64,000 bases of DNA from a virus (lineage: Duplodnaviria; Caudoviricetes), in the IMG/VR virus record IMGVR_UViG_3300032319_000568, positions 1-64,000 of that record; one strand, written 5' to 3'. Of the stretch, positions 52,870 to 56,213 are shown in pieces. Each line of letters begins with the position of its first letter. Within the stretch, counting starts at the first letter, position 1. The notes below the pieces were generated by a model. The model did not search any database. It was not told the DNA's origin and saw nothing but the letters and a program-made list of their open reading frames with translations. The position numbers were made by a program, and so were the translations under genes.

Positions 52870-52950
52870 GCTCCGGTAATGGCGGGGACTTCTAAGCCCT
52901 AAGTGCATAATTGGATGAAAATGGGGGTTCAACTCCCTCCCGGAGCGCCA
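52870..52950 (+). tRNA. Atypical tRNA-Arg(UCU)-like RNA without a D stem
   Basis: GCTCCGG/CCGGAGC acceptor + GCCA; T arm GGGGG-TTCAACT-CCCTC; loop CT-TCT-AA; 7 nt replace the D arm; 22-nt variable region. Confidence 0.65.
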
Positions 52951-53011
52951 TTTTTGATCATATTCATAAATTTGTATATATTTATATGTTCAAACTTCTA
53001 TTAAAAAGAAG

Positions 53012-53039
53012 TTGATTCTTTGAAAATTTGCGGTAAGAT
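53012..53039 (+). promoter_or_regulatory. Promoter (TAAGAT class)
   Basis: TTGATT-N16-TAAGAT. Confidence 0.5.
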
Positions 53040-53056
53040 AAAGAAGTAATAAGTAT

Positions 53057-53159
53057 TTCGTTCTTTCAGCATGGTGGGAGAAGCACTCCTCTGGAACATC
53101 TACGAATGGCGGAACTGCCTCGGCCTTTAACCGAAGGGGGTCACCAACGAAAGAATGAA
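53057..53159 (+). ncRNA. Candidate structured ncRNA (about 103 nt)
   Basis: 11-bp closing stem TTCGTTCTTTC/GAAAGAATGAA, inner TGGTG/CACCA and two hairpins. Confidence 0.5.
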
Positions 53160-53166
53160 ATGATAG

Positions 53167-53194
53167 TTGACAACAAAAGAATGTGTGGTAAGAT
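53167..53194 (+). promoter_or_regulatory. Promoter (TAAGAT class)
   Basis: TTGACA-N16-TAAGAT. Confidence 0.65.
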
Positions 53195-53228
53195 AAAAAA
53201 GTAGTAAGTTCTTTAACAAATTTTTAAT

Positions 53229-53305
53229 GGCCTTGTAGCTCAGTTGGTAGTAGCAGAAGCCTTTTAAGCTTTTGGTCGTGGGTTCGAGTCCCACCGGGGC
53301 CACCA
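53229..53305 (+). tRNA. tRNA-Lys(UUU)
   Basis: Full cloverleaf, loop CT-TTT-AA, encoded CCA. Confidence 0.93.
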
Positions 53306-53312
53306 TTTTAAC

Positions 53313-53387
53313 GGTCTGTTCGTCTATCGGCTAGGACTCCGGATTTTCACTCCGGTAAGAGGGGTTCGATTCCCCTACAGACTACCA
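53313..53387 (+). tRNA. tRNA-Glu(UUC)
   Basis: Full cloverleaf, loop TT-TTC-AC, encoded CCA. Confidence 0.93.
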
Positions 53388-53394
53388 CTTTGTA

Positions 53395-53650
53395 CGTACA
53401 AACATATGTGAGTGTAGGACACTTTAAATAAGGCAAAACATATTAAGCGCATGTGTTTAATATAAAGTAGCAGCATATGAAATTTTATGTTTGGTTGTTT
53501 AACTAGGAAAAACAACTTGGTGGAGGGCGTTAAACCATAACACCCCTAGAGTATGGAAGATCTCTTAAAAAACTTCTTGGTTGCGGGCTTAGCAAGTGGT
53601 ATACTTTGTTTGTTGGGTGGATAGAGTATTCAATAAAACACACCCAACTA
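53395..53650 (+). ncRNA. Candidate structured ncRNA (about 255 nt)
   Basis: No ORF; hairpins AGTGT/ACACT, GTTGTTT/AAACAAC, TTGC/GCAA, GTTGGGTG/CACCCAAC. Confidence 0.45.
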
Positions 53651-53676
53651 GATTTTTAAGATAGTTCTTTAAAATT

Positions 53677-53763
53677 TGCGGAGTGTGAGAAGTCAGGTAT
53701 CTCAACGGTTTCATAATCCGTCGCCTATGTGCCTCGCAGGTTCAAATCCTGCCTCCGCTACCA
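53677..53763 (+). tRNA. tRNA(CAU), initiator-like (1:72 mismatch), long variable region
   Basis: Loop TT-CAT-AA; T arm GCAGG-TTCAAAT-CCTGC; CCA. Confidence 0.8.
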
Positions 53764-53770
53764 TTTCAAT

Positions 53771-53842
53771 GGCTGGGGCTTCAGCAAGCGAGATTCTTTC
53801 ATACGGAATCTTTAATGAGGGCAGCACTCATACCAGCTACCA
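53771..53842 (+). tRNA. tRNA(CAU) with non-canonical T loop
   Basis: Loop TT-CAT-AC; T arm ATGAG-GGCAGCA-CTCAT; CCA. Confidence 0.7.
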
Positions 53843-53866
53843 TTTTAGTTCTTTAACAAAACAATT

Positions 53867-53938
53867 TGCAGATTGGTGTAATGGCAACACAATACGCTCA
53901 TAACGTATAGTTCACGTTCAAGTCGTGGTCTGCTCCCA
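53867..53938 (+). tRNA. tRNA(CAU) (Met or Ile2)
   Basis: ATACG-CTCATAA-CGTAT; T arm CACG-TTCAAGT-CGTG; CCA. Confidence 0.75.
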
Positions 53939-54038: not shown

Positions 54039-54101
54039 TTTTTAATAGTTCATTGAAAATTAAAATTAAATTGGTAGACAAAATAATTTGTATTTTGAGT
54101 T

Positions 54102-54827
54102 GTGTCTACCATATATATTCATATGAATAAATTATGTGAATATGGATGTGGATTGCCAGCAATTAATCAACTAAAAAATGGAAAGTTTTGTTGTTCAAAA
54201 CACAACAATAGTTGTCCTGAAAATAAAAAGAAAAACGCTGAAGGATTGAAACAATCATATGAAAGTGGGGTTAGAAAACCAGCTGGATATGTTTATGAAA
54301 AATTATCTGATGATGTAAAGAAAAGAATGGCGTGGTCTAGAGGTAAATCATCTTATGATGACACTAGAATAAAAAACAAATATTCAGATGACCAAATTTT
54401 TAAAGAAAATACAACCATTTCAAATAAAGTTGTAAAAAGCAGATTAATGTCAAATCCAAATTTTGAACATAAGTGTGAGTTATGTTCTACTAAAGAATGG
54501 TATGACCCTTTTGAAAGTAAAACTAAGCCAGTAAATCTAGAATTAGACCATATAAATGGCAATGAAAGAGACAACAGAAAAGAAAATTTAAGATTGATTT
54601 GTTCTAATTGTCATAGTTTTACTCCTACATATAAAGGGAGAAACATTAATAAATTTCTAAATCGGGGCGATAGAAAAGTTTCTGATGAAATTCTTTTACA
54701 AGAGTTGAAAACAAAAAATATAAGACAATCTTTAATTTCAGTAGGATTATGTGCTTCTGGTGAAAATTATGAAAGATGTAAAATTTTGAAAAGTCAGTTG
54801 ACTTCAGAAGAAAATGTGGTAAGATGA
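54102..54827 (+). CDS. Free-standing HNH homing endonuclease
   Basis: CELC...LELDHING...NLRLICSNCH; probable ATG 54123. Confidence 0.88.
   Translation: MSTIYIHMNKLCEYGCGLPAINQLKNGKFCCSKHNNSCPENKKKNAEGLKQSYESGVRKPAGYVYEKLSDDVKKRMAWSRGKSSYDDTRIKNKYSDDQIFKENTTISNKVVKSRLMSNPNFEHKCELCSTKEWYDPFESKTKPVNLELDHINGNERDNRKENLRLICSNCHSFTPTYKGRNINKFLNRGDRKVSDEILLQELKTKNIRQSLISVGLCASGENYERCKILKSQLTSEENVVR
54798..54825 (+). promoter_or_regulatory. Promoter (TAAGAT class) inside the 3' end of the HNH gene
   Basis: TTGACT-N16-TAAGAT. Confidence 0.6.
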
Positions 54828-54866
54828 AAGAGTAGTAAGTGATGGTTCTTTGTAAGTAATTTAAAT

Positions 54867-55200
54867 GGGCGTGTAGACCAGCGGAAGAGTCAACAGACTT
54901 TAGCGTAAATTGAGTGCTTAGAGAGAAATCTCTAAAGTAGAATTTGTCAAATTCGGGGAAAGCTTAACTGCCAATCCCGAGCCAAGCTCAGAAATGAGAA
55001 GGTGTAGAGACTTAACGGCAAACATCTAAAACAGAAATGTTATGATGAAGAGAAAGTCCAGACCACAAACGATGAAATCAGTTGTATATGATGGGCTATA
55101 ATCCATTTAAATTACAACTTGTCAAAAGACCGTCGGTAGTGAAAACTATAGTGGTACGAAAATCTGTAAAGCGGTGGTTCGAATCCACTCACGCCTACCA
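54867..55200 (+). tRNA. tRNA-Leu(UAA) split by a group I intron (exons 54867-54900, 55159-55200)
   Basis: Joining exons gives ACAGA-CT-TAA-AA-TCTGT and a complete cloverleaf with CCA. Confidence 0.9.
54901..55158 (+). mobile_element. Group I intron (258 nt, no ORF), trnL(UAA)-like
   Basis: P1 ACTT/GAGT with U.G; P AATTCGGGGAA, Q AATCCCGAGC, R GTAGAGACT, S GAAAGTCC; terminal G. Confidence 0.9.
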
Positions 55201-55209
55201 TTTTCAATT

Positions 55210-55340
55210 GAATAAGTTGTAGCGAATGGCGCAGCAGGAGGTCGGTACCCAAAGTTGTAGACACGGGGAAAACCGCCGATTAACGATATAACTATGAATA
55301 GACGTTATGTATGTGGGTTCAAGTCCCATCAACTTTTTCA
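55210..55340 (+). ncRNA. tRNA-like RNA with enlarged anticodon and variable arms, no encoded CCA
   Basis: GAATAAGTTG/CAACTTTTTC stem, T arm GTGGG-TTCAAGT-CCCAT, GTCGG/CCGAT, TAACG/CGTTA. Confidence 0.6.
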
Positions 55341-55356
55341 ATAGTTCTTTAAATTT

Positions 55357-55512
55357 TTGGGTGAAGGGTGATATTATATCGTTTTTACTTGTTTTTCTCC
55401 TTATTTCTACTAATGTAGATGTAGGATAAGCTGCGAGTTAAAATCTGAGGTTAACTAGGATTTTAATTTCAAAATGATGCTTAATAAAACAATAGTCACT
55501 AATAAGCCCCAA
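55357..55512 (+). ncRNA. Candidate structured ncRNA (about 155 nt) containing a Cas12a-handle-like hairpin
   Basis: TTGGG/CCCAA and GGTGA/TCACT closing stems; AGTTAAAATC/GATTTTAATT hairpin; TATTTCTACTAATGTAGAT at 55402-55420. Confidence 0.5.
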
Positions 55513-55540
55513 TAATTTTCAATAGTTCTTTAACAATTTA

Positions 55541-55840
55541 AGATAGTGGCGGAACAACAATTAGTTTAGTTGTAACGCACAATATATGGCGTTGAAAAAC
55601 GTTGTATATTGGTTGGAGTAGGAGTCATGGAGGGTAAATCTATGGAGAATTTGAGGTCGTACAACCTTGAATTTGAGCGTATCGGGATCGTAGCTAAAAT
55701 ATATGATAAATCGTAGCCCGTTGTGGGGAAAACAAAATCCCATCAGTCATTAACACAAGGAGTAATTAACCGTGTGGACTGTGGATGAATAACCAGTCGT
55801 GATTCTGAAACTTGGAGGTAATCATTAGTCCTTCCTATTT
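55541..55840 (+). ncRNA. Candidate large structured ncRNA (about 300 nt)
   Basis: AGATAG/CTATTT closing stem; CAATATA/TATATTG with CGTT-GAAA-AACG; GACTG/CAGTC; GGAGG/CCTTC; bracketed by a boxA-like motif and a tRNA. Confidence 0.55.
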
Positions 55841-55850
55841 GAATTTAAAC

Positions 55851-55923
55851 GCGGGTCAGGTGTAAAGAGAGCACGTTAGTCTACCAGACTAAAAGGCGAA
55901 ATGCAAAGTTCGGACCCGCTCCA
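55851..55923 (+). tRNA. tRNA-Gly(ACC), atypical T arm
   Basis: GCGGGTC/GACCCGC + U73 + CCA; TTAGT-CTACCAG-ACTAA. Confidence 0.75.
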
Positions 55924-55931
55924 GTTTTAAT

Positions 55932-56004
55932 GCGATATTAGTGTCATGAGGAGCACGCTCACATTCCAGTGAGTAGGCCGGTGCAAGTCCGAGATATCGC
56001 TCCA
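55932..56004 (+). tRNA. tRNA-Gly(UCC), degenerate
   Basis: GCGATAT/ATATCGC + U73 + CCA; anticodon loop 6 or 8 nt; only 3 bp in T stem. Confidence 0.55.
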
Positions 56005-56013
56005 GTTTTTGAT

Positions 56014-56090
56014 AGTCCTGTAGCTCAACAGAGCAGAGCAATCAGTTTATAACTGATAGGTTGTGGGTTCGAAGCCCATCGGGACTACCA
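56014..56090 (+). tRNA. tRNA-Ile(UAU), second copy
   Basis: ATCAG-TTTATAA-CTGAT; full cloverleaf; CCA. Confidence 0.9.
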
Positions 56091-56099
56091 TTTTATAAC

Positions 56100-56213
56100 G
56101 GATCAATAGCTCAATTCGGTTAGAGCAGTGAACTCTTTCGCTGCTTATAAACTAAAAGGTATAAGTAGAAAATAATTCATCGGTTATCGGTTCAAGTCCG
56201 GTTTGATCCACCA
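56100..56213 (+). tRNA. tRNA (CAU or CUU after removal) with 36-nt hairpin insertion in the anticodon loop
   Basis: Intact acceptor, D and T arms and CCA; GTGAA/TTCAT stem encloses a 43-nt loop. Confidence 0.85.

What the first reader, a model, noticed from the sequence alone, without database searches (positions are those of the whole stretch)
52870..56213. Stable-RNA island: tRNAs interleaved with five unexplained folded RNAs (best candidate for an undescribed system)
In 3.3 kb, 12 tRNA genes alternate with five ORF-free, base-paired elements. Most units follow a boxA-like motif or one of three TAAGAT promoters, and two tRNAs have anticodon insertions, each next to an HNH gene. The layout suggests a processed multi-RNA transcript for translation takeover or defence evasion. 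T4 RNA C/D and GOLLD/ROOL RNAs are known precedents for unexplained RNAs in phage tRNA clusters.
Basis: partly seen in the sequence, partly recalled or inferred. Interest (0 to 1): 0.78.

Follow-up and report, generated by a model that had tools for sequence, protein, structure and literature searches.

The report
Phage tRNA island with stable RNAs
This 3.3-kb stretch of a freshwater giant phage is a real array of RNA genes: between its tRNAs lie folded RNAs, of which one is a very abundant, enlarged relative of the cage-forming manA RNA, one resembles the wcaG RNA, one is a group I intron and one is new.

Summary
The layout is real but was over-counted. Standard tools find 8 tRNA genes (6 plain and 2 interrupted). 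Five more units are non-canonical tRNA-like genes. There are two clear and one weaker TAAGAT promoters, and five copies of a boxA-like GTTCTTTAA linker.

The "unexplained" RNAs resolve as follows:
- **Group I intron:** 54901-55158, at U34|A35 of a tRNA(UAA). Rfam scores it 71 bits.
- **U4 (55535-55848):** a strongly covarying family. 25 of 42 helix pairs show compensatory changes across 51 homologues. Its shorter relatives match Rfam manA over the full model at 24-30 bits, below the gathering score of 55.
- **U2 (53482-53662):** resembles wcaG at 26 bits, below the gathering score of 42.
- **U1 (53056-53164):** conserved, matches nothing in Rfam, and is new.
- **U3:** strain-specific and silent in the RNA data.

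In river metatranscriptomes U4 reaches k-mer depths of 4,000-14,000, against 0-50 for its neighbours. Its 3' end is found joined to its own 5' end. That joint is absent from all 102 DNA copies examined. U1 gives a closed-cycle RNA contig.

manA RNAs are reported to build RNA-only cages, as do GOLLD and ROOL, which also sit near phage tRNA islands.

The scan had already reached the same manA-like, abundant, joined-ends reading on another genome (e1-5392558). I saw that note only after my own analysis.

The parts
52870..52950 (+). Non-canonical tRNA-like gene with anticodon loop CUUCUAA (UCU), a long variable region, a canonical T arm and an encoded GCCA end
   Evidence: Rfam tRNA 27.5 bits, just under the gathering score of 29. 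ARAGORN finds it only at relaxed settings. It is conserved in 27 loci. An A-to-U change restores the 31-39 pair.
53012..53040 (+). Promoter-like site P1 (TTGATT, 16 nt, TAAGAT)
   Evidence: Read from the sequence and conserved in relatives. It falls below the consensus scanner's cut-off.
53056..53164 (+). U1: a conserved 109-nt folded RNA that matches no Rfam family. A terminal 12-15-bp helix holds its two ends together.
   Evidence: Present in 56 loci. Hairpin C has 2 compensatory pairs. The terminal helix forms in all 22 variants despite changes in its outer sequence. A 139-nt RNA contig joins 3' to 5'. No tandem copy occurs in the 26 genuine U1 DNA contexts. No Rfam match at E up to 10.
53167..53194 (+). 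Promoter-like site P2 (TTGACA, 16 nt, TG-n-TAAGAT)
53208..53216 (+). boxA-like linker GTTCTTTAA. Further copies lie at 53664-53672, 53848-53856, 55344-55352 and 55525-55533.
   Evidence: Five of the 7 window matches lie in the island, all on the + strand.
53229..53305 (+). tRNA-Lys (UUU)
53313..53387 (+). tRNA-Glu (UUC)
53482..53662 (+). U2: a conserved folded RNA. Its core at 53485-53594 resembles the wcaG motif and is followed by a long conserved hairpin.
   Evidence: Rfam wcaG 26.1 bits against a gathering score of 42, E = 0.003, full model 1-98. The first hairpin covaries, with 4 compensatory pairs in all. Present in 44 loci.
53677..53763 (+). tRNA with anticodon CAU, a long variable region and a U1-U72 mismatch
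   Evidence: 41.9 bits. Variants appear.
53771..53843 (+). Non-canonical tRNA-like gene with anticodon CAU, a 4-nt D loop, T loop GCAGCA(C) and an ACCA end
   Evidence: Found only by ARAGORN's mitochondrial mode. The fold has z = -3.2. The D, anticodon and T stems all covary.
53866..53937 (+). tRNA (CAU)
53945..54038 (+). tRNA (UAU) with a long variable arm
   Evidence: 62.5 bits. Identical in 26 loci.
54102..54827 (+). HNH endonuclease gene. Promoter-like site P3 (54798-54825) lies in its 3' end.
   Evidence: Pfam HNH_3 and PHROG HNH families. P3.
54867..55200 (+). tRNA (UAA) with a short variable loop, interrupted between U34 and A35 by a 258-nt group I intron (54901-55158)
   Evidence: Rfam Intron_gpI 71.4 bits. 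The intronless allele in L003 fixes both boundaries. The joint 54900-55159 appears in RNA contigs, but intronless DNA alleles also exist.
55212..55339 (+). Structured tRNA-like unit with an acceptor-like stem, a canonical T arm, an approximately 85-nt middle part and no CCA
   Evidence: Rfam tRNA 25.1 bits. Present in 14 loci, with a compensatory change in L118.
55345..55520 (+). U3: a spacer cassette with no support as an RNA gene
   Evidence: Its only homologue is an identical 1.4-kb contig. RNA depth is zero in all 4 runs, and relatives skip it (joint 55204-55522).
55535..55848 (+). U4: an approximately 307-nt, multi-helix, manA-like RNA. It is very abundant in RNA data and its ends are found joined there.
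   Evidence: 51 unique homologues; 97.9% of cells paired; 25 of 42 pairs compensatory; 0 of 500 shuffles reach the score. Short-clade members hit manA at 23.7-30.2 bits over the full model. Depth 4,000-14,000 and back-joint 55841-55535. The joint is absent from DNA.
55851..55925 (+). Non-canonical tRNA-Gly-like gene (anticodon ACC) with G1-C72, C2-G71, G3-C70, U73 and CCA
   Evidence: ARAGORN mitochondrial mode. The acceptor and anticodon stems covary across 31 variants.
55932..56006 (+). Paralogous non-canonical tRNA-Gly-like gene (anticodon UCC) with the same acceptor features and U73-CCA
   Evidence: Multiple compensatory acceptor and anticodon-stem variants.
56014..56090 (+). tRNA (UAU)
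56100..56213 (+). tRNA (CAU) interrupted between C34 and A35 by a 36-nt hairpin insert (56136-56171)
   Evidence: Rfam tRNA 52.9 bits. Many intronless alleles read CUCAUAA. Four insert-bearing alleles keep covarying anticodon stems.
56216..56617 (-). HNH endonuclease gene
   Evidence: PHROG HNH families, E = 1e-17

Best explanation
The region is a modular stable-RNA operon array from a freshwater giant-phage lineage. A complete relative measures 296 kb.

**Transcription and processing.** Sigma-70-type promoters drive untranslated polycistronic transcripts. A repeated boxA-like linker may keep these transcripts from premature termination; this is inferred. Host tRNA-processing enzymes then cut the transcripts into separate molecules; this is also inferred.

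**Products.**
1. tRNAs, canonical and structurally odd, whose anticodons match the phage's commonest A/U-rich codons.
2. A tRNA(UAA) carrying a self-splicing group I intron at the classic U34|A35 site.
3. Three conserved non-coding RNA genes:
   - U4, an enlarged distant relative of the manA RNA.
   - U2, a distant relative of the wcaG RNA.
   - U1, a new 109-nt RNA.

**U4.** It accumulates far above every neighbour. Like manA RNAs, it most likely acts as a free, self-assembling RNA, an oligomer or cage, and not as a cis-regulator.

**Circular forms.** A fraction of U4 and U1 molecules appears to be circular. Their ends sit at the base of a terminal helix. The phage lineage's T4 Rnl1-type RNA ligase or a host ligase could seal them; this is inferred.
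For: **Shown**
- Promoters and linker statistics.
- tRNA calls.
- Exact intron and insert boundaries from intronless alleles.
- Cassette shuffling among 18 or more related loci.
- U4 covariation: 25 of 42 pairs compensatory, 97.9% of cells paired, score 0.459 against 0.177 when shuffled and 0.04-0.11 when slid.
- manA full-model hits at 23.7-30.2 bits in 5 of 5 short-clade members.
- wcaG-like hit for U2, with a covarying first hairpin.
- U1 conservation and covariation.
- RNA depth of U4: 4,000-14,000 in three river runs and 28-36 in a fourth. Flanking ORFs show 0-12 and tRNAs 5-50.
- RNA back-joints for U4 in 2 runs and for U1 in 1 run, where the contig is 139 nt = 109 + 30.
- The U4 joint is absent from 0 of 102 DNA copies and from IMG/VR. 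U1 is single-copy in the 26 genuine U1 DNA contexts.
- Anticodons match the top codons: AAA 76%, GAA 86%, TTA 45%, AGA 55%, GGT 50%, GGA 34%, ATA 35%.
- An Rnl1-family ligase is present in the complete relative.

**From the literature**
- manA and wcaG are orphan motifs of T4-like cyanophages (PMC2864571). They lie side by side in S-CREM1 (PMC9964418).
- manA forms 60-mer cages and decamers (bioRxiv 10.64898/2026.07.01.735769).
- GOLLD and ROOL are cage-forming phage RNAs near tRNA islands, and ROOL is as abundant as 16S rRNA (PMC12286853).
Against: - **Weak family matches.** The manA and wcaG matches are below Rfam's gathering scores. The window's own U4 scores only 11-15 bits. Sequence-only profiles (nhmmer) find no significant manA-U4 similarity.
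- **Limits of the RNA data.** Depths come from assembled contigs, not reads. Three of the four runs may belong to one sampling campaign. Strand and true ends cannot be read from contigs.
- **Possible artefact in the U4 joint.** It lies in a 7-nt direct repeat (AAUUUAA). Reverse-transcriptase template switching could therefore create it.
- **Thin support for the U1 circle.** The joint rests on one contig at depth about 10.
- **Untested steps.** Cage formation, NusB/NusE binding to the linker and RNase P/Z release were not tested.
- **Ligase location.** No ligase lies in this 79.6-kb fragment.
Confidence: 0.68

Rival explanations
1. Decoy or defence-evasion island. On this view the odd tRNA-like RNAs and folded spacers are baits or spare parts. 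They absorb or replace the targets of host anticodon nucleases, and RNA-repair enzymes help.
For: - Five structurally aberrant tRNA-like genes are kept under selection.
- U1 carries a hairpin with the 7-nt loop CCUUUAA, which resembles the tRNA-Lys(UUU) anticodon loop CUUUUAA.
- A T4 Rnl1-type ligase is present in the complete relative.
- A SpoU-family RNA methyltransferase, a PIN-like protein and a HAD/weakly PNK-like protein flank the island.
Against: - Every anticodon, including those of the odd units, matches the phage's most used codon of its family. Ordinary decoding explains this.
- No nuclease, toxin or defence partner was identified.
- U4 and U2 resemble RNA families with no known link to tRNA cleavage.
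- The PNK assignment is weak: PHROG E = 1e-5, with no NCBIfam hit.
Confidence: 0.12
2. The spacers are passive. On this view U1, U2 and U4 are only leaders, processing stalks or decayed tRNA or intron remnants. The RNA signal comes from slow decay of structured debris.
For: - U3 is exactly such a unit: strain-specific and silent.
- The island is a recombination mosaic with HNH genes.
- U1's terminal helix looks like a processing stem.
Against: - Compensatory changes affect 25 U4 helix pairs across three clades.
- Single-stranded motifs and an 11-nt hairpin loop are invariant across clades that otherwise diverge.
- U4-type RNA also occurs in a different phage lineage, with its own promoter, after a tRNA array and a tmRNA.
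- Its depth is two to three orders of magnitude above the tRNAs beside it.
Confidence: 0.08
3. Cis-regulatory reading, as Rfam files manA and wcaG. On this view U4 and U2 are riboswitch-like leaders that control what lies downstream.
For: - Rfam type 'Cis-reg' and the original proposal (PMC2864571).
- U4's 3' hairpin plus U-run looks like a terminator.
Against: - What lies downstream here is tRNA-like genes, not ORFs.
- U4 accumulates as a discrete species far above downstream sequence: depth 4,000-14,000 against 3-15 at 55922-56122.
- In P-TIM68 the gene after a true manA lies on the opposite strand.
- True manA RNAs carry their own promoter-like TATAAT and U-tract.
Confidence: 0.05
4. The head-to-tail joints are library artefacts and both RNAs are linear in the cell. 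The rest of the best explanation is unchanged.
For: - The U4 joint falls in a 7-nt repeat present at both ends. This suits template switching on a very abundant RNA.
- The junction depth is only 4-10% of the internal depth.
- The U1 joint was seen in one run only.
Against: - The U1 joint has no more than 1 nt of microhomology. Its contig length equals circle length plus k-1.
- Both joints fall exactly where a covarying terminal helix brings the ends together.
- No such joints were reported for the neighbouring tRNAs.
Confidence: 0.45

Closest known systems
manA RNA motif (Rfam RF01745; Weinberg et al. 2010, PMC2864571; cryo-EM preprint 10.64898/2026.07.01.735769)
   Same: The elements come in the same order:
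- a 5' hairpin;
- a short closing or pseudoknot helix;
- a GUGAC(U/G)GAAUAA-type strand;
- a hairpin followed by UAA(G/C)GU;
- a second hairpin;
- a long-range helix;
- a 3' hairpin with a GGUAAU...CC loop;
- a U-run.

It is phage-encoded. Five of 5 short-clade relatives align to the whole model.
   Different: - Scores of 11-30 bits are below the gathering score of 55.2.
- A 137-190-nt multi-helix domain is inserted in one loop.
- The hosts are freshwater giant phages, not marine T4-like cyanophages.
- It sits inside a tRNA array, not before an ORF.
- There is no significant sequence-only similarity.
wcaG RNA motif (Rfam RF01761; PMC2864571)
   Same: U2's core aligns to the full 98-position model, with the same three hairpins and UGGUG..GA / UGG joining strands. 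wcaG and manA co-occur in cyanophages and lie side by side in S-CREM1 (PMC9964418).
   Different: - It scores 26 bits against a gathering score of 42.
- It has an extra conserved 3' hairpin.
- It lies between tRNAs, not in a 5' UTR.
GOLLD and ROOL RNAs (PMC12286853)
   Same: They are phage or prophage RNAs of unknown function, often beside tRNA islands and very abundant. They self-assemble into RNA-only cages, as manA is reported to do.
   Different: There is no sequence or structure match (Rfam). They are 580-800+ nt against about 307 nt for U4.
tRNA-Leu(UAA) group I intron of cyanobacteria and plastids
   Same: It is a group I intron inserted between U34 and A35 of a UAA anticodon. The 5' exon ends in U and the intron ends in G. 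That this is the classic site rests on my own knowledge.
   Different: - The host tRNA has a short, class I variable loop.
- It is phage-encoded.
- This copy has an extra 56-nt insertion relative to sister alleles.
rRNA-operon boxA antitermination signal (E. coli rrn boxA UGCUCUUUAACAA; from my own knowledge)
   Same: The linker reads (A)GUUCUUUAACAA. It follows promoters and precedes untranslated structured RNAs.
   Different: - It is repeated between cassettes, not found once per operon.
- In U1 the same letters form one strand of a helix.
- NusB/NusE binding was not tested.

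Membership tests
manA RNA (RF01745) | Covariance-model score at or above the gathering score of 55.2 bits | tested here: not met
   Window U4 scores 15.1 and 11.2 bits. Short-clade relatives score 23.7-30.2 bits with E = 1.5e-4 to 1.2e-2. As a positive control, P-SSM2 manA scores 181.6 bits.
manA RNA (RF01745) | The same helices in the same order, each supported by covariation | tested here: met
   The full-model alignment 1-192 maps the manA hairpins, the long-range helix and the 3' hairpin onto U4 helices. Those helices carry compensatory changes.
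manA RNA (RF01745) | Conserved joining strands (GUGACUGAAUAA, UAAGGUGA) and the GGGAG/CUCCC pseudoknot | tested here: inconclusive
   U4 has GUGRCGGAAYAA and UAACGY. Its closing helix is only 3-6 bp (UAG/CUA or UUG/CAA, covarying) in place of GGGAG/CUCCC. nhmmer finds only the first strand, at E about 2.
manA RNA (RF01745) | Homo-oligomeric assembly (decamer or 60-mer cage) | not testable with these tools
   Known only from the cryo-EM preprint 10.64898/2026.07.01.735769.
wcaG RNA (RF01761) | Covariance-model score at or above the gathering score of 42 bits | tested here: not met
   26.1 bits, E = 0.003, full model 1-98.
Group I intron (RF00028) | Model score above the gathering score, U at the 5' splice site, G at the intron's 3' end, and a precise intronless allele | tested here: met
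   71.4 bits against a gathering score of 50. Boundaries 54900|54901 and 55158|55159 come from L003.
tRNA (RF00005) | Model score at or above 29 bits | tested here: met
   Met for 7 genes, and for an eighth, the intron-bearing gene, through its intronless allele at 59.4 bits. Not met for 52870-52950 (27.5 bits), 55251-55337 (25.1 bits), 53771-53843, 55851-55925 and 55932-56006.
GOLLD / ROOL | Match to the Rfam models | tested here: not met
   No match even at E up to 10.
boxA / Nus-factor antitermination | boxA consensus downstream of a promoter on an untranslated transcript, with binding by NusB-NusE | tested here: inconclusive
   The sequence and position fit. Binding and antitermination cannot be tested here.

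The most novel reading that the evidence does not exclude
Giant freshwater phages make covalently circular, self-assembling RNAs from a tRNA operon. U4, an enlarged manA-type cage RNA, and the unrelated 109-nt U1 are cut out next to a terminal helix and sealed by the phage's Rnl1-type ligase. This would give nuclease-resistant RNA particles that make up about 1% of a river metatranscriptome. It would also mean that manA-class 'riboswitch candidates' are really free structural RNAs, a third kind beside GOLLD and ROOL.
Probability: 0.25. Interest if true: 0.85.

Novelty: new variant of a known kind. Interest (0 to 1): 0.64.

Why it matters
manA and wcaG have been orphan "riboswitch candidates" since 2010. 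Here their distant relatives sit in a tRNA operon with no gene to regulate. One of them accumulates two to three orders of magnitude above its neighbours in environmental RNA.

Together with the 2026 report that manA RNAs build cages, this makes a concrete idea testable. Phage tRNA islands may repeatedly host abundant, self-assembling structural RNAs: GOLLD, ROOL and the manA class.

The joined ends raise the possibility of natural circular RNAs in a phage. U1, the 36-nt anticodon insert and the odd glycine-type tRNAs are further defined targets.

Tried and rejected
- **Known RNAs for U4.** I considered RNase P RNA, tmRNA, SRP RNA, 6S RNA and self-cleaving ribozymes. Rfam gives no match even at E up to 10 on the 321-nt stretch alone. 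The resemblances to RNase P conserved regions that I recalled by eye did not give a consistent P4 pairing.\n- **Coding in U4.** The small GTG frame is not conserved, because relatives change frame.\n- **The TAAGAT at 55539-55544 as U4's own promoter.** Rejected. The covarying closing helix and the RNA joint include bases upstream of any start it would give.\n- **Isolate phages.** No relative of the island or of short-clade U4 was found.\n- **Sequence-only profiles, manA against U4.** Not significant.\n- **Cell-wall (Fem-type) use of the odd tRNA-Gly pair.** No FemAB family is present in this record or in the complete relative.\n- **RtcB as the sealing enzyme.** Absent from both records.\n- **Strict linkage of HNH genes to interrupted alleles.** Not seen. 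L012 has the intron without HNH1, and L003 has HNH-like genes with intronless tRNAs.\n- **Splicing of the 36-nt insert.** An RNA contig lacks the insert, but its exon allele has no DNA counterpart in my loci. It therefore cannot separate splicing from an intronless gene.\n- **A full covariance model of U4.** Not built. At about 310 columns it exceeds the calibration limit.\n- **Parts of the island without RNA contig cover** (for example 53912-54716). These say nothing.

Full report
**Source and setting**

The window is part of a 79.6-kb IMG/VR virus record that CheckV rates 26% complete. GC content is about 31%. A complete relative measures 295,831 bp. DNA and RNA runs that hold the sequence are from fresh water: lakes, rivers and reservoirs.

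The flanking genes are these:
- a SpoU-family RNA 2'-O-methyltransferase at 50693-51235;
- a PIN-like protein;
- a protein with a HAD domain and a weak polynucleotide-kinase match.

**Checking the observation**

ARAGORN finds 6 tRNAs with default settings and 8 when introns are allowed. Rfam at gathering score finds 7 tRNAs and one group I intron.

The anticodons of the 8 genes are as follows:

| Anticodon | Note |
|---|---|
| UUU | Lys |
| UUC | Glu |
| CAU | long variable region and a 1-72 mismatch |
| CAU | plain |
| UAU | long variable arm |
| UAA | intron-bearing |
| UAU | plain |
| CAU | carries the 36-nt insert |

Five further units end in CCA or have tRNA-like arms but fail the standard models: 52870-52950, 53771-53843, 55212-55339, 55851-55925 and 55932-56006.

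Two strong promoter-like sites carry an extended -10 TG-n-TAAGAT, and a third, weaker one lies upstream. GTTCTTTAA occurs five times on the + strand inside 3.3 kb. The whole window has 7 matches, where 2.7 are expected. The fuller linker, CCAUUUU-AAUAGUUCUUUAACAA, joins the cassettes.

**Relatives**

The 110-aa protein just upstream retrieved 18 related viral loci. Patterns from U1 and U4 retrieved more from viral and metagenome contigs.

The island is a mosaic. Units are present, absent or reordered between relatives, always at the linker. RNA and DNA contigs show the matching "skips".

**The two interrupted tRNAs**

L003 carries an intronless allele with exons identical to the window's. This fixes the group I intron at 54901-55158. 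It lies between U34 and A35 of loop CU-UAA-AA, and the intron ends in G. This is the classic trnL(UAA) site, as far as I know. The tRNA body, however, has a 5-nt variable loop.

The last tRNA has many intronless alleles with loop CUCAUAA. In the window, 36 nt (56136-56171) sit between C34 and A35. Four diverged insert-bearing alleles keep the anticodon stem through compensatory changes: GUGAA/UUCAU, GGGAA/UUCCU and AAGAA/UUCUU. The interrupted gene is therefore still under selection. The insert is too small for a group I intron, and how it is removed or tolerated is unknown.

HNH genes flank both interrupted tRNAs. Their presence does not track the interrupted alleles strictly.

**U4 (55535-55848)**

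I aligned 51 distinct homologues falling into three clades of about 306, 293 and 258-263 nt. Covariation is strong:
- The RNAalifold consensus has 42 pairs, of which 25 carry compensatory changes.
- 97.9% of cells pair.
- The covariation score is 0.459, against 0.177 for shuffles (0 of 500 reach it) and 0.04-0.11 when partners are slid.
- A further long-range helix covaries within and between clades but is out of register in the joint alignment.

The window's own U4 gives only 11-15 bits to Rfam manA. The five short-clade members I tested all align to the whole manA model at 23.7-30.2 bits, and manA is the only non-tRNA family that they share. A true manA from P-SSM2 scores 181.6 bits. It shows the same order of elements, plus a promoter-like site and a U-tract.

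Sequence-only profiles do not link the two groups. I therefore put homology at about 70% and do not file U4 as a member of the family.

In the short clade, the RNA follows a large tRNA array and a phage tmRNA. In one contig a Pistol ribozyme lies downstream. The link with stable-RNA islands therefore holds in a second lineage.

**U2 and U1**

U2's core (53485-53594) aligns to the full wcaG model at 26.1 bits, against a gathering score of 42, with E = 0.003. Its first hairpin covaries. wcaG and manA were described together from T4-like cyanophages (PMC2864571) and lie side by side in S-CREM1 (PMC9964418). The two weak matches therefore support each other.

U1 (53056-53164) is present in 56 loci and highly conserved. 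It has compensatory changes in one hairpin. Its 12-15-bp terminal helix survives changes in its outer sequence in all 22 variants. It matches nothing in Rfam.

U3 has no homologue apart from an identical short contig, and it has no RNA cover.

**RNA evidence**

I laid contigs of four freshwater metatranscriptomes on 51500-57500.

| Region | Depth in three river runs |
|---|---|
| U4 | 4,000-14,000 |
| Flanking ORFs | 0-5 |
| tRNAs and U2 | 3-155 |
| Group I intron | 40-400 |
| U3 | 0 |

In the fourth run U4 reaches 28-36.

Contigs in two runs join 55841 back to 55535, within a 7-nt repeat (AAUUUAA). One 139-nt contig joins the 3' end of U1 to its 5' end, and 139 = 109 + 30, as expected for a closed cycle at k = 31.

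The U4 joint is absent from IMG/VR and from all 102 DNA copies of the U4 3' motif that I fetched. U1 is never tandem in DNA.

Caveats:
- These are contigs, not reads.
- Three of the runs may be one campaign.
- The U4 repeat would permit template switching.
- The U1 joint is a single low-depth contig.

I put circular forms at about 45%.

The complete relative encodes a T4 Rnl1-family RNA ligase (57.7 bits) and no RtcB.

**The odd tRNA-like genes**

Units 55851-55925 and 55932-56006 are paralogues. Both have G1-C72, C2-G71, G3-C70, U73-CCA and anticodons ACC and UCC. To my knowledge this is the bacterial glycine identity set. Their acceptor and anticodon stems covary in 31 variants each. Their D and T loops are not canonical.

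Unit 53771-53843 (CAU) covaries in three stems.

The anticodons of all units match the phage's commonest codons: AGA 55% of Arg, GGT 50% and GGA 34% of Gly, TTA 45% of Leu, ATA 35% of Ile, AAA 76% and GAA 86%. This fits decoding better than decoy roles. No FemAB-type transferase is present.

**Comparison with what is known**

GOLLD and ROOL are phage RNAs near tRNA islands that form cages, and ROOL is as abundant as 16S rRNA (PMC12286853). manA RNAs form decamers and a 60-mer cage (bioRxiv 10.64898/2026.07.01.735769). A manA-like RNA inside a tRNA island, at very high abundance, fits this pattern and argues against the cis-regulatory label.

**Verdict**

The island is real and unusual, but it is not one undescribed system. 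It combines tRNAs, a known intron, two distant relatives of described phage RNA families, one new small RNA and one empty spacer.

The scan's earlier follow-up on another genome (e1-5392558) reached the same reading of the U4-type RNA. I saw it, after my own.

Noticed in passing
window 56136-56171: A 36-nt hairpin insert sits between C34 and A35 of a tRNA(CAU), the same site as the group I intron in the tRNA(UAA). Four diverged insert-bearing alleles keep compensating anticodon stems. It fits no known intron class.
   Followed up: partly
window 55851-55925 and 55932-56006: Two paralogous tRNA-Gly-like genes (anticodons ACC and UCC) have the glycine acceptor set and U73 but non-canonical D and T loops (T loop AUGC/GUGC in place of TPsiC). 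Some alleles carry a 7-nt insertion in the T loop.
   Followed up: partly
window 54867-55200, 53677-53763, 53945-54038: tRNA body shapes do not fit their anticodons. The UAA (Leu codon) tRNA has a short variable loop, while the CAU and UAU tRNAs have long variable regions. The CAU one also has a U1-U72 mismatch. Their amino-acid identity is open.
   Followed up: no
L133:4567-4943, L078:617-993 (-), L071:822-881: In another freshwater phage lineage the short manA-like RNA follows an array of more than 20 tRNAs and a phage-encoded tmRNA (90-92 bits). A Pistol ribozyme (38.1 bits, gathering score 34.5) lies about 160 nt downstream of it in one contig.
   Followed up: no
window 55078-55133: This copy of the group I intron carries an extra 56-nt insertion in its 3' part relative to the alleles in L011, L012 and L017.
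   Followed up: no
window 53041-53056, 53197-53212, 54828-54845: All three promoters are followed by the same initial transcribed sequence, A(A/G)AGTA(A/G)TAAGT, before the boxA-like motif. It is conserved in relatives.
   Followed up: no
L148 (P-TIM68, NC_028955: 152815-152989) and L140 (P-SSM2): True manA RNAs of marine cyanophages have a promoter-like TATAAT just upstream and a U-tract downstream. In P-TIM68 the next gene is on the opposite strand. Both points fit a stand-alone RNA gene better than a 5' UTR element.
   Followed up: partly
window 50693-51235 and G001:287636-288202: A SpoU/TrmH-like RNA 2'-O-methyltransferase lies just upstream of the island. A T4 Rnl1-family RNA ligase is present in the complete relative. 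Together they suggest a phage tRNA modification and repair toolkit.
   Followed up: partly
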